DNA of 64,000 bases from Octopus vulgaris (lineage: Eukaryota), in NCBI GenBank assembly GCA_951406725.2, contig OX597822.1:109182001-109246000 (forward strand). The letters run 5' to 3'. The translations under genes and the position numbers were made by a program. A model generated the notes under the pieces. That model was not told where the DNA came from. It ran no database searches and saw only the letters and a program-made list of their open reading frames with translations. Positions 12,188-12,866 of the stretch are shown in pieces; positions within the stretch are counted from its first letter, which is position 1, and the number at the start of each line of letters is the position of its first letter.

Positions 12188-12191
<4 letters not shown>

Positions 12192-12866
12192 CAATAATAA
12201 ATATCTGAACGAGATATAAACAGTAACCGCTCGACAACGTAAGGTGTACTAGCCATCTGAATGTGGCTTGCCACTGGGGTGGGGTGTTACTGATGCTTTT
12301 AGCCCCAGGCGATCAACGTCACCAGATGGACTTTAGACACTATCTCAGTGCCCTTGTGTTATTTGCAAAGGGAGGTCATCCTCCCTCGAAAACCTAAGTA
12401 CTAGATAGTATCTAAAGTCCATCAGGTGACGTTGATCGTCTGGGGCTAAAAGCATCAGTAACACCCCACCCCTAGTGGCTAGCCACATTCAGATGGCTAG
12501 TACACCTTACGTTGTCGAGCAGTTACTGTTTATATCTCGTTCAGAGATTTATTATTGCTTTCAGACAGTTTTTCTAAATCAGTGACAGTGGTTGCTGTGG
12601 AAAACGTTATATATTATTTGCAAGGAGACTCCTTCATCGAAGACCGGTGCTTACCATGCGTTGACGAGAGGCAATTACCTTGAAACTATAGTCCGTATGT
12701 AGTACTTAGGTTTTCGGGGGAGGATGACCTCCCTTTGCAAATAGCACAAGGGCACTGAGATAGTTTCTAAAGTCCATCTGGTGACGTTGATCGCCTGGGG
12801 CTAAAAGCATCAGTAACACCCCACCCCCAGTGGCTAGCCACATTCAGATGGCTAGTACGCCTTACG
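12188..12866 (+). mobile_element. Retrozyme-like / PLE-derived non-coding element: ~1.3 tandem copies of a 355-nt unit preceded by an inverted partial copy
   Basis: TCTAAAGTCC at 12411 and 12766 (period 355); 12188-12403 is the inverted copy; one hammerhead per unit; (TA)n on both flanks. Confidence 0.8.
12655..12699 (+). ncRNA. Type I hammerhead ribozyme with all three stems
   Basis: CATGCG TTGACGA GAGG CAATTA CCTT GAAA C TATA GTC CGTATG; 6-bp stem I; predicted cut after 12693; U3 instead of C3. Confidence 0.85.

What the first reader, a model, noticed from the sequence alone, without database searches (positions are those of the whole stretch)
12188..12866. 355-nt retrozyme-like unit: candidate self-cleaving circular RNA retro-inserted in (TA)n
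Seen: a non-coding, relatively GC-rich unit repeated with period 355 nt (~1.3 copies, permuted relative to the ribozyme). It carries one three-stem hammerhead with predicted cut after 12693. It is preceded by an inverted copy whose 5' end (TAGTACTTAGG, 12403 on -) starts 6 nt downstream of the predicted cleavage site. Known: metazoan non-LTR retrozymes are short tandem repeats with type I hammerheads that give abundant circRNAs and are proposed to use PLE machinery. Inference: one template was a ribozyme-cleaved monomer and the other a circular or multimeric RNA. A PLE pseudo-LTR is the alternative reading.
Basis: partly seen in the sequence, partly recalled or inferred. Interest (0 to 1): 0.75.

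Follow-up and report, generated by a model that had tools for sequence, protein, structure and literature searches.

The report
Penelope-style insertion of a hammerhead retrozyme
This is one old, probably inert copy of a 355-base non-coding mobile element that carries a hammerhead-ribozyme motif and occurs in thousands of copies in this genome; its two-armed layout inside a (TA)n repeat suggests it was likely pasted in by the enzymes of Penelope-like retrotransposons, which makes it a clean example of a known kind of element (an animal "retrozyme").

Summary
Window 12403-12866 is a 355-nt unit repeated 1.3 times, preceded by an inverted partial copy (12188-12403). Both lie inside (TA)n, and a type I hammerhead motif sits at 12655-12699.

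The unit belongs to a dispersed family: 2638 first-look candidates in a 2.8-Gb genome.
- Arms end at two fixed unit positions, about 111 or about 152-159. Their 5' ends vary.
- 38 of 73 sampled insertions are head-to-head pairs. 24 of those 38 have one short and one long end, and none has two short ends.
- Six pairs outside microsatellites carry 9-13-bp target-site duplications.
- A 98-100% identical sister family (360-nt unit) shows the same layout, with at least 10 tandem units at one locus.

This matches the published insertion signature of Penelope-like elements (PLEs), and PLEs with intact ORFs are abundant here.

The hammerhead scores below Rfam's threshold and has U3·G8. Across subfamilies, however, its helices and the 3-8 pair change in structure-preserving ways.

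5' ends do not cluster at the predicted cut, so a "cleaved monomer" template is not supported. A template longer than one unit (circular or multimeric) fits the data. No RNA evidence could be obtained.

Verdict: a new member of a known kind (an animal non-LTR retrozyme dependent on PLE machinery).

The parts
12142..12188 (.). left (AT)n tract of the target microsatellite
   Evidence: TRF period 2, 23.5 copies, 100% matches
12188..12403 (-). inverted, 5'-truncated arm. Read on the minus strand it equals unit positions 298..355,1..159. It contains no hammerhead core.
   Evidence: inverted repeats I1, I2 and I16; blastn arms; 208 of 217 matches to the forward equivalents
12188..12235 (-). one-sided 'tail': unit positions 112-159, present at the outer end of this arm only
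   Evidence: this arm ends at unit 159 and the forward arm at unit 109; 24 of 38 family pairs show the same short/long asymmetry
12403..12866 (+). forward arm: unit 1..355 followed by 1..109 (1.31 units), ending at the family's short 3' end
   Evidence: direct repeat D6 with spacing 355; arms; 3' end ...CCTTACG|C(TA)n
12655..12699 (+). type I hammerhead-like motif. Helix I is CAUGCG/CGUAUG, the core is UUGACGA (U3.G8), helix II is GAGG/CCUU, and helix III is the palindrome ACUAUAGU. The predicted cut is after C12693.
   Evidence: RF00163 17.1 bits, E 0.065, model 1-45; pair counts across variants
12638..12645 (+). 5' strand of the distal extension of helix I (CGAAGACC)
   Evidence: pairs with 12709-12716. 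Family variants are CGAAGACC/GGUCUUCG, CGAAAACC/GGUUUUCG and, in the window, G.U; the MFE fold shows a long closing helix
12709..12716 (+). 3' strand of the distal extension of helix I (GGUUUUCG)
   Evidence: as above
12868..12949 (.). right (TA)n tract of the target microsatellite
   Evidence: TRF period 2, 41 copies

Best explanation
Window 12188-12866 is one two-armed insertion of a dispersed 355-nt non-coding repeat that carries a hammerhead-like motif. It was most likely made in a single event, by target-primed reverse transcription from both sides of a staggered break in a (TA)n tract, by the enzymes of Penelope-like elements (PLEs), on an RNA template longer than one unit that is predicted to be circular or multimeric.

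Shown directly:
- the layout of this copy;
- the family's fixed 3' ends and variable 5' ends;
- the head-to-head pairing with a one-sided 44-48-nt tail;
- target-site duplications;
- the (TA)n preference;
- abundant PLEs with intact ORFs in the same genome;
- structure-preserving change in the hammerhead across subfamilies.

Inferred:
- PLE reverse transcriptase/endonuclease did the work.
- Each of the two 3'-OH ends of the break primed cDNA at one of two fixed template sites (unit ~111 and ~152-159).
- The two cDNAs were joined in the middle.
- In master loci with two or more units, the hammerheads, acting as dimers through their palindromic helix III, cut out unit-length RNA that is ligated into circles.

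This particular copy has only one hammerhead. Its duplicated parts have diverged by about 4-5%. It is therefore predicted to be an inert descendant, not a source of circles.
For: Family and ends:
- 2638 first-look candidates, of which 40 were scored, giving 160 matches on many contigs.
- Among 73 distinct sampled insertions, arms end sharply at unit 107-115 or 150-161.
- 38 insertions are head-to-head (5' ends inward) and 0 are tail-to-tail.
- 24 of the 38 pairs have one short and one long end, 2 have two long ends, 0 have two short ends, and 12 involve another end.
- 23 of 30 single arms end short.

Single-event origin:
- Pairs outside microsatellites are flanked by target-site duplications: L006 12-13 bp, L011 11-12, L013 10, L018 10, L020 9, L072 12.
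- In the window copy, both arms share 8 non-majority positions.

Target: (TA)5 or longer lies within 40 nt of 44 of 73 insertions.

Sister family (360-nt unit, 1013 candidates, copies 98-100% identical):
- 13 of 14 pairs have one arm ending at 44 and the other at 85-88.
- 18 of 19 insertions lie in (TA)n.
- One locus has 10 consecutive full units.

The PLE signature in print is 5' truncation, partial tandems, an adjacent inverted 5'-truncated copy, a 30-40-bp tail at one end, and a (TA)n bias (PMC8557442, passages).

Resident PLEs:
- GIY-YIG search gave 6136 candidates. 148 of the 150 scored passed, and all 148 exceed Pfam's cut-off. Many have intact 781-aa frames.
- L097 has a 456-nt pseudo-LTR pair at 99.3% identity and ends directly at (TA)n.
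- 20 of 33 PLE loci carry a hammerhead-like motif in the pseudo-LTR region with the core UUGAUAA (U3/A8). This is the same heptamer as the older subfamily of the repeat.

Hammerhead:
- 98.8% of 254 cells form standard pairs, against 25-52% when partners are slid.
- 3 pairs change on both sides.
- The 3-8 pair is U.G in 9 variants, U-A in 8 and C-G in 1.
- Helix III is always a perfect palindrome: ACUAUAGU, ACUAGU, ACCGGU or ACCAUGGU.

Monomer RNAs fold with a long closing helix around the ribozyme: -98.4 kcal/mol with z -1.9, and -125.8 kcal/mol with z -6.7 for the sister family.
Against: - No RNA evidence of any kind: no run on record as RNA, and only contigs could be laid.
- The hammerhead scores 17.1 bits against a gathering score of 34. 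It is not found unless a 101-nt stretch is searched alone.
- The youngest subfamily has U3.G8 and G10.1.U11.1. The very young sister family has C4 in place of U4. From recall, single core changes of this kind lower activity in minimal hammerheads, so cleavage may be weak or unnecessary.
- No sequence similarity was found between the unit and the sampled PLEs: 30 GIY-YIG loci and 3 full elements. The autonomous partner is therefore not identified.
- 5' ends do not mark the ribozyme cut.
- Sampling is biased. Only the 40 best of 1000-2600 candidates were scored per search, and hits with a full unit are favoured. This inflates the share of arms longer than one unit (81 of 120). Among the shorter arms of pairs, which are less biased, 11 of 38 exceed one unit.
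- L002, L003 and L071 are segmental or palindromic duplicates, not independent events.
- Tandem arms can also arise by template jumping on linear RNAs, as assumed for autonomous PLEs, so circles are not required.
Confidence: 0.78

Rival explanations
1. The family is a SINE-like, PLE-dependent retroposon copied from ordinary linear transcripts. Tandem arms arise by reverse-transcriptase template jumping, for example through the 44-48-nt terminal redundancy, as in autonomous PLEs. The hammerhead is an inherited passenger that is weak or inactive, and no circular RNA is involved.
For: - Autonomous PLEs with linear RNAs also give partial tandems and inverted copies (PMC8557442 passages; L097).
- The most recently amplified subfamilies have non-canonical cores: U3.G8, and C3-C4 in the sister family.
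- 5' ends do not cluster at the cut.
- PLE mini-hammerheads cleave poorly in vitro (PMC4209133 passages).
Against: - Helices I, II and III and the 3-8 pair stay pairable through several subfamily turnovers, with compensatory changes. This argues for selection on the ribozyme fold in the master copies.
- Arms of 3.5 units, and up to at least 10 units, occur in families whose typical arm is 1-1.6 units. They need an extending mechanism.
- Published animal retrozymes do give circular RNAs (PMC7229834 and PMC7761336, passages).
Confidence: 0.3
2. The unit is simply a solo or rearranged pseudo-LTR of an autonomous PLE family that was not sampled here.
For: - PLE pseudo-LTRs carry hammerheads and occur as solo, tandem and inverted fragments (PMC4209133).
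- Xenopus retrozymes are homologous to PLE pseudo-LTRs (preprint 10.64898/2026.07.22.740005, section 14).
- Only the top 150 of 6136 GIY-YIG candidates were scored.
Against: - No PLE ORF similarity in the window, and only 4 of 120 family locus records have degenerate fragments.
- No similarity to 33 PLE loci.
- Seamless 355- or 360-nt periodic arrays of up to 10 units occur without intervening ORFs.
Confidence: 0.08
3. It is a foldback or MITE-type DNA transposon, or a locally amplified satellite. The inverted arms would be terminal inverted repeats and TA the target.
For: Inverted arms flanked by TA-rich sequence. Other palindromic insertions lie in the same microsatellite.
Against: - Inner junctions differ at every locus and the arms are unequal.
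- The outer ends are the same element end in both arms, with a 44-48-nt offset.
- Target-site duplications are 9-13 bp, not TA.
- Arms contain direct tandem units.
- Copies are dispersed over many contigs.
Confidence: 0.03

Closest known systems
Animal non-LTR retrozymes (Cervera & de la Pena 2020, PMC7229834; review PMC7761336)
   Same: - Non-coding tandem units with one type I hammerhead each.
- Low GC, no LTR, PBS or PPT, and target-site duplications longer than 4 bp.
- Helix I of 6 bp, helix II of 4 bp, and a short palindromic helix III that implies dimeric cleavage.
- Monomer RNA predicted to be highly self-paired.
- Co-occurrence with PLEs.
   Different: - The unit is 355-360 nt, against about 150-300 bp stated in the review.
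- Most copies are short (1-1.6 units) dispersed insertions rather than long arrays.
- The core is U3.G8, U3-A8 or C3-C4 instead of C3-U4...G8.
- Circular RNA and cleavage are not shown here.
- The review says no motif identifies the helper element. Here the insertion architecture itself points to PLEs.
Minimal hammerheads in PLE pseudo-LTRs, including the U3-A8 covariant of Schistosoma Cercyon PLEs (Cervera & de la Pena 2014, PMC4209133)
   Same: - U3-A8 core in the older subfamilies.
- Palindromic helix III.
- Motifs sometimes found close together on opposite strands.
- The resident PLEs here carry a UUGAUAA-core motif in their pseudo-LTR.
   Different: - The repeat has no ORF and no detectable homology to the sampled PLE pseudo-LTRs.
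- Its helix I is long (6 bp plus an 8-bp distal helix) and its helix II is 4 bp. This is the 'canonical metazoan' architecture rather than the mini-hammerhead one.
Non-autonomous PLE derivatives such as the Chlamys-dependent elements (for example MRC1) of Chlamydomonas (Craig et al. 2021, PMC8557442)
   Same: Short non-coding elements that form pseudo-LTRs and multicopy head-to-tail insertions, with PLE-type complex insertions and a microsatellite bias.
   Different: Those elements share 3'-end sequence with their autonomous partner and lack canonical hammerheads. Here a hammerhead is present and no shared 3' end was found.

Membership tests
Animal non-LTR retrozyme | Short non-coding unit in head-to-tail tandem copies, without LTR or ORF | tested here: met
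   355-nt period, 1.31 units here. Up to 3.5 units in sampled family arms, and at least 10 in the sister family. Longest open frame 60 aa.
Animal non-LTR retrozyme | A type I hammerhead in every unit | tested here: inconclusive
   The motif is present in every full unit sampled and its fold is conserved. It is below Rfam's gathering score (17.1 against 34), and the core has U3 (family 1) or C4 (family 2).
Animal non-LTR retrozyme | Unit-length circular RNA expressed; self-cleavage | not testable with these tools
   No run on record as RNA and only contigs available. No cleavage assay is possible.
Animal non-LTR retrozyme | Co-occurrence with PLEs in the genome | tested here: met
   6136 GIY-YIG candidates and intact 781-aa RT+EN frames.
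PLE-type insertion (element mobilised by PLE machinery) | 5' truncation and partial tandems | tested here: met
   Variable 5' ends and fixed 3' ends. 81 of 120 arms exceed one unit, in a biased sample.
PLE-type insertion (element mobilised by PLE machinery) | Inverted 5'-truncated copy adjacent at the 5' end | tested here: met
   38 of 73 insertions (family 1) and 14 of 19 (family 2) are head-to-head, and 0 are tail-to-tail. The window copy is one of them.
PLE-type insertion (element mobilised by PLE machinery) | 30-40-bp tail at only one end of the insertion | tested here: met
   One short and one long end in 24 of 38 pairs (family 1) and 13 of 14 (family 2). Never two short ends. The tail is 41-48 nt, or 41-44 nt in the sister family, slightly longer than published.
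PLE-type insertion (element mobilised by PLE machinery) | Microsatellite, (TA)n, insertion bias | tested here: met
   44 of 73 and 18 of 19 insertions have (TA)5 or longer within 40 nt. The resident PLE also ends at (TA)n.
PLE-type insertion (element mobilised by PLE machinery) | Sequence shared with the autonomous partner (3' end or pseudo-LTR) | tested here: not met
   No blastn similarity to 30 GIY-YIG loci (E<=0.01) or to 3 full PLEs. Only the hammerhead core type UUGAUAA is shared. Other PLE families were not sampled.
Hammerhead ribozyme type I (Rfam RF00163) | Score at or above the curated gathering threshold | tested here: not met
   17.1 bits against 34. No hit in the whole-window scans.
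Hammerhead ribozyme type I (Rfam RF00163) | Three helices around the core in type I topology, supported by covariation | tested here: met
   98.8% of cells paired against 25-52% in slid controls. Compensatory changes in helices I, II and III. The rows are related, so the number of independent events is small.
Hammerhead ribozyme type I (Rfam RF00163) | Conserved core C3 U4 G5 A6 N7 G8 A9 / G12 A13 A14 / H17 | tested here: inconclusive
   All positions are present except C3, which is U. The 3-8 pair is kept as U.G here, U-A in older subfamilies and C-G in the sister family. U3-A8 is a known natural covariant (PMC4209133).
Plain PLE pseudo-LTR | Flanks a PLE ORF (RT + GIY-YIG) | tested here: not met
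   tblastn with the resident PLE ORFs found nothing in the window, and degenerate fragments in 4 of 120 family locus records. The only RT in the window is LINE-like, at 44609-46639.
MITE / foldback DNA transposon | Equal terminal inverted repeats with a fixed short target-site duplication | tested here: not met
   Arms are unequal with a variable inner junction, and duplications are 9-13 bp.

The most novel reading that the evidence does not exclude
The two arms of each insertion are cDNAs primed at two fixed sites 44-48 nt apart on a circular hammerhead RNA by a PLE reverse transcriptase, one from each strand of the cut (TA)n target. If so, these loci are genomic footprints of rolling-circle reverse transcription of retrozyme circles. 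They would also explain the so far unexplained one-sided 'tail' of PLE insertions as a second, defined priming site. Families with U3.G8 or C4 cores that still amplify would show how far the hammerhead core can drift while the cycle keeps running.
Probability: 0.3. Interest if true: 0.6.

Novelty: new member of a known kind. Interest (0 to 1): 0.38.

Why it matters
Animal retrozymes are thought to ride on PLE enzymes. In the papers I read, the support for this is co-occurrence and, in Xenopus, pseudo-LTR homology. The 2020 review states that no motif reveals the helper element.

Here the insertion architecture of two retrozyme families reproduces the peculiar PLE signature copy after copy:
- a (TA)n target;
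- head-to-head arms;
- a one-sided 44-48-nt tail;
- 9-13-bp target-site duplications.

This is independent structural support for PLE mobilisation. It also gives a well-defined system for testing it: a family that is 98-100% identical and apparently active, alongside PLEs with intact ORFs.

The series of core variants (U3-A8, U3.G8, C3-C4) makes it testable whether ribozyme activity is needed for spread at all. The window copy itself is an ordinary, decayed member.

Tried and rejected
- RNA evidence. No RNA holder was listed among 24 runs; all were 'RNA? (a guess)' or '?' and kept as contigs. Laying X1, X2, X3 and X8 gave only fragmentary contigs. Their summed depths are compatible with low-coverage DNA of a multi-thousand-copy repeat. 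No starts or ends and no informative joints were seen, so nothing can be said on expression or circles. The second read-laying run was not used, for the same reason.
- Loose-end lead. Contigs that begin at 12512 with other sequence suggested a partner sharing the tail. An exact pattern search for a 19-nt part of that loose-end consensus found 0 hits. The loose end behind 12822 turned out to be the sister family.
- Autonomous partner by similarity. The unit was compared with 30 GIY-YIG loci and 3 full PLEs, with no result. A search with the 62-nt tail segment returned only family copies.
- Rfam on PLE loci. No hammerhead at E<=1 in 8 loci, nor at E<=10 in the 101 nt around the PLE motif. That motif rests on my own relaxed descriptor.
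- RF00163 in the own genome. Only 73 of about 263,000 candidates were scored. The 6 hits are unrelated canonical hammerheads.
- Earlier notes of this scan held nothing.
- No tRNA-like part in 11400-13000.
- Clonality test. Variants shared by all units of an insertion were compared with variants in only some copies. There were too few differences in the young sister family to be informative (30 against 160, with some loci counted twice). In family 1 the counts mostly reflect subfamily membership.
- 5'-end clustering near unit 1-13 was partly an artefact of the query boundary. The remaining broad excess at units 270-90 is confounded by picking hits that contain a full unit.
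Full report
**1. What is in the window**

- Window 12403-12866 is a forward arm of a 355-nt unit repeated 1.31 times. The repeated part, 12403-12511 against 12758-12866, has 5 mismatches of 109.
- Window 12188-12403 is an inverted partial copy. Read as plus sense it equals unit positions 298..355,1..159, with 208 of 217 matches.
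- The element lies between (AT)23.5 at 12142-12188 and (TA)41 at 12868-12949.
- It is non-coding: the longest frame is 60 aa. Its GC is 0.46 against 0.32 for the window.

**2. The hammerhead in this copy**

Rfam finds nothing at gathering score in the window, and no hammerhead at E<=10 in 12100-12950. When only 12625-12725 is searched, Hammerhead_1 (RF00163) is the top match of 4227 families. It lies at 12655-12699 (+), scores 17.1 bits against a gathering score of 34, has E=0.065, and spans the full model.

- helix I: CAUGCG/CGUAUG;
- core: UUGACGA, with U at position 3;
- helix II: GAGG/CCUU;
- GAA;
- helix III: ACUAUAGU;
- cut after C12693.

The inverted arm starts 6 nt after that cut. My relaxed descriptor hits only this site in the whole 64-kb window on both strands.

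**3. It is one copy of a large dispersed family**

The window's genome (G000) is 2.8 Gb in 227 contigs. The unit has 2638 first-look candidates. The 40 that were scored gave 160 matches on many contigs at 83-97% identity.

An older subfamily query gave 2247 candidates. These overlap the first set to an unknown degree.

From 90 fetched locus records I obtained 73 distinct insertions.
- Arms end sharply at unit 107-115 ('short'...CCTTACGTT) or at 150-161 ('long'...TTATTATTGCTTT).
- 5' ends vary.
- 38 insertions are head-to-head pairs with the 5' ends inward, 30 are single arms, 5 are complex, and none is tail-to-tail.
- Among the 38 pairs, 24 have one short and one long end, 2 have two long ends, none has two short ends, and 12 involve another end.
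- Of the 30 single arms, 23 end short.
- (TA)5 or longer lies within 40 nt of 44 of the 73 insertions.

Where the target is not a microsatellite, pairs are flanked by target-site duplications: L006 12-13 bp, L011 11-12, L013 10, L018 10, L020 9 and L072 12. One single arm (L079) has a duplication of about 39 bp. Each pair is therefore a single insertion event.

The window copy fits this exactly. Its minus arm ends long (unit 159) and its plus arm ends short (unit 109). Its two arms share 8 non-majority positions.

**4. A sister family shows the same rules more cleanly**

In the flank of L119 I found a related 360-nt unit, about 74% identical to the window's over 357 aligned positions. It has 1013 candidates, and copies are 98-100% identical to each other.

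Among 19 distinct complete insertions:
- 14 are head-to-head;
- 13 of those 14 have one arm ending at unit position 44 and the other at 85-88;
- 18 of 19 lie in (TA)n.

One locus has 10 consecutive full units (C14:72706536-72710134). The short and long ends are homologous to those of the window's family.

**5. Comparison with PLEs**

Craig et al. 2021 (PMC8557442, passages read) describe PLE insertions as follows:
- 5'-truncated;
- often in partial tandem, which creates a pseudo-LTR;
- often with an inverted 5'-truncated copy adjacent at the 5' end;
- with a 30-40-bp 'tail' at only one end;
- with a (TA)n bias in some clades.

They also describe non-autonomous derivatives with multicopy head-to-tail insertions. 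All four structural features are met here. The tail is slightly longer, at 41-48 nt.

PLEs are abundant in this genome.
- Pfam GIY-YIG gave 6136 candidates. 148 of the 150 scored passed, all 148 exceed the cut-off, and many have intact 781-aa frames.
- L097 is a complete element. It has a 456-nt pseudo-LTR pair at 99.3% identity, an ORF1 and a 781-aa RT+EN ORF2.
- It ends directly at (TA)n.

The unit is not a plain pseudo-LTR.
- The window has no PLE ORF similarity. Only 4 of 120 family locus records have degenerate fragments within 1.5 kb.
- The only RT in the window is LINE-like (RVT_1 plus zf-RVT) at 44609-46639.

I found no sequence similarity between the unit and the sampled PLEs, so the helper is inferred, not identified. 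There is one link. 20 of 33 PLE loci carry a hammerhead-like motif in the pseudo-LTR region: UUGAUAA, a 5-bp helix II, GAA, then ACAUGU. Its core heptamer is that of the older subfamily of the repeat. Rfam does not recognise that motif.

**6. Is the hammerhead real?**

U3 is the state of all copies, not a private mutation. Among 113 distinct instances (48 distinct sequences) and the sister family, the variants are:

| Group | Core | Helix III | Helix I | Helix II |
|---|---|---|---|---|
| Young (this window) | UUGACGA | ACUAUAGU | CAUGCG/CGUAUG | GAGG/CCUU |
| Intermediate and older | UUGACAA or UUGAUAA (U3 with A8) | ACUAGU or ACCGGU | CAUACG/CGUAUG | GAGG/CCUC |
| Sister family | CCGACGA (UUGACGA in L158) | ACCAUGGU | CACACG/CGUGUG | — |

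I aligned 18 variants: those seen at least twice, plus the window copy and two sister-family variants. On the named structure:
- 98.8% of 254 cells form standard pairs, against 25-52% when partners are slid by 1-3 columns.
- 3 pairs change on both sides: 26-67 UA/CG, 37-51, and 57-60 UA/CG.
- The 3-8 pair is U.G in 9 variants, U-A in 8 and C-G in 1.

The rows are related, so the number of independent events is small. Singleton variants were left out before the count.

All four helix III variants are perfect palindromes. This is the published hallmark of animal type I hammerheads that act as dimers. U3-A8 is a known natural covariant in PLE hammerheads (PMC4209133, passages).

A distal 8-bp extension of helix I also covaries: CGAAGACC/GGUCUUCG, CGAAAACC/GGUUUUCG, and G.U in the window.

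Monomer RNAs cut at the predicted site fold with a long closing helix: -98.4 kcal/mol with z -1.9 for family 1, and -125.8 kcal/mol with z -6.7 for the sister family.

The motif is therefore a hammerhead by architecture and by evolutionary behaviour. It fails Rfam's threshold, though, and the currently amplifying variants have a wobble 3-8 pair or C4.

**7. Template**

In family 1, 10 of 120 arms start within +-10 nt of it, against 7.1 expected (p=0.17). In the sister family the figure is 1 of 35. The 6-nt proximity in the window is best read as chance.

A template longer than one unit is required:
- 81 of 120 arms exceed one unit. The sample favours hits with a full unit.
- Among the shorter arms of pairs, 11 of 38 exceed one unit.
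- The longest complete arms have 3.5 units, and one sister-family locus has at least 10.

A copy made by 5'-truncating reverse transcription cannot be longer than a linear template. Some extending step is therefore needed, either rolling-circle copying of a circle or template jumping. The published retrozyme model invokes the circle (PMC7761336, passages). Autonomous PLEs show that tandems also arise with linear RNAs. I cannot decide between them.

**8. This copy**

It has one hammerhead only, because the inverted arm lacks the core. No other family copy lies in the window. Two cuts that would release a unit are therefore impossible from this locus, and a dimeric ribozyme cannot form in cis. 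Together with the 4-5% divergence between its duplicated parts, I read it as an inert descendant. This is inference.

**9. What is known and what is new**

The kind is known:
- animal non-LTR retrozymes (PMC7229834, passages; PMC7761336);
- their proposed dependence on PLEs, most recently argued from co-occurrence and pseudo-LTR homology in Xenopus (preprint 10.64898/2026.07.22.740005: abstract and outline, section 14).

That preprint contains no 'tail' or 'target site', and 'inverted' appears only in a reference title. A full-text search for retrozyme + target-primed + inverted returned only Craig et al. 2021. The NAR 2020 paper has no occurrence of 'inverted'. These are the searches behind my statement that the PLE insertion signature on retrozymes does not seem to be described in the held library. 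Supplements were not read.

**10. Limits**

- Each genome search scored only the best 40 candidates (150 for Pfam, 73 for Rfam). All counts are therefore samples of top-scoring copies.
- L002, L003 and L071 are duplicated or palindromic loci.
- Positions in older copies come from alignments at about 80% identity.
- No RNA data of known type were available.

Noticed in passing
window 11465-12142: The same (TA)n tract holds three more palindromic, head-to-head-looking insertions: 11473-11678 (72-nt arms), 11755-11900, and 11975-12065 plus 12068-12142. The last two recur at other (TA)n loci at 90-100% identity (L026; L057, L086, L127, L157). The microsatellite is therefore a nest of short mobile elements, possibly also PLE-type.
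   Followed up: partly
L119:1952-3100; G000:C14:72706536-72710134: A sister retrozyme-like family with a 360-nt unit and 1013 candidates. Copies are 98-100% identical, and one locus has at least 10 tandem units. Its hammerhead core is CCGACGA (C at position 4). It looks currently or very recently active.
   Followed up: yes
L097:1930-7172 (G000:C16:20834929-20840171): A complete PLE with a 456-nt pseudo-LTR pair (99.3%), an ORF1 (359 aa) and a 781-aa RT+GIY-YIG ORF2. The genome has at least 6136 GIY-YIG candidates, many with intact frames. The pseudo-LTR carries a hammerhead-like motif (UUGAUAA...GAAACAUGU) that Rfam does not detect.
   Followed up: partly
L035:~200 (+); L049:~27 (+); L034:~2572 (-); L039:~455 (+): Further hammerhead-like motifs were found by a relaxed descriptor near PLE loci. 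One has the CCGACGA core and an 8-bp helix I. One has UUGAUAA with a 4-bp helix II and loop CAACAA. Two have canonical CUGAUGA with palindromic helix III.
   Followed up: no
L092, L093 and L096 (1501-1608); L091:1501-1547: Canonical type I hammerheads above Rfam's gathering score (34.2-45.5 bits). Three belong to a family with a roughly 60-nt insertion in helix II. They are unrelated in sequence to the finding.
   Followed up: partly
window 44609-46639 (+): LINE-like reverse transcriptase remnant: RVT_1 at 1.4e-30, followed by zf-RVT.
   Followed up: no
window 10560-11176: Long adjoining trinucleotide arrays: (TTC)15, (TTA)20, (AGT)76 and (AGA)89.
   Followed up: no
L079:1192-1583; L071:1413-2385: One single-arm insertion is flanked by a duplication of about 39 bp. 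One locus has both arms and their flanks forming a large palindrome, either a DNA-level inverted duplication or an assembly artefact.
   Followed up: no
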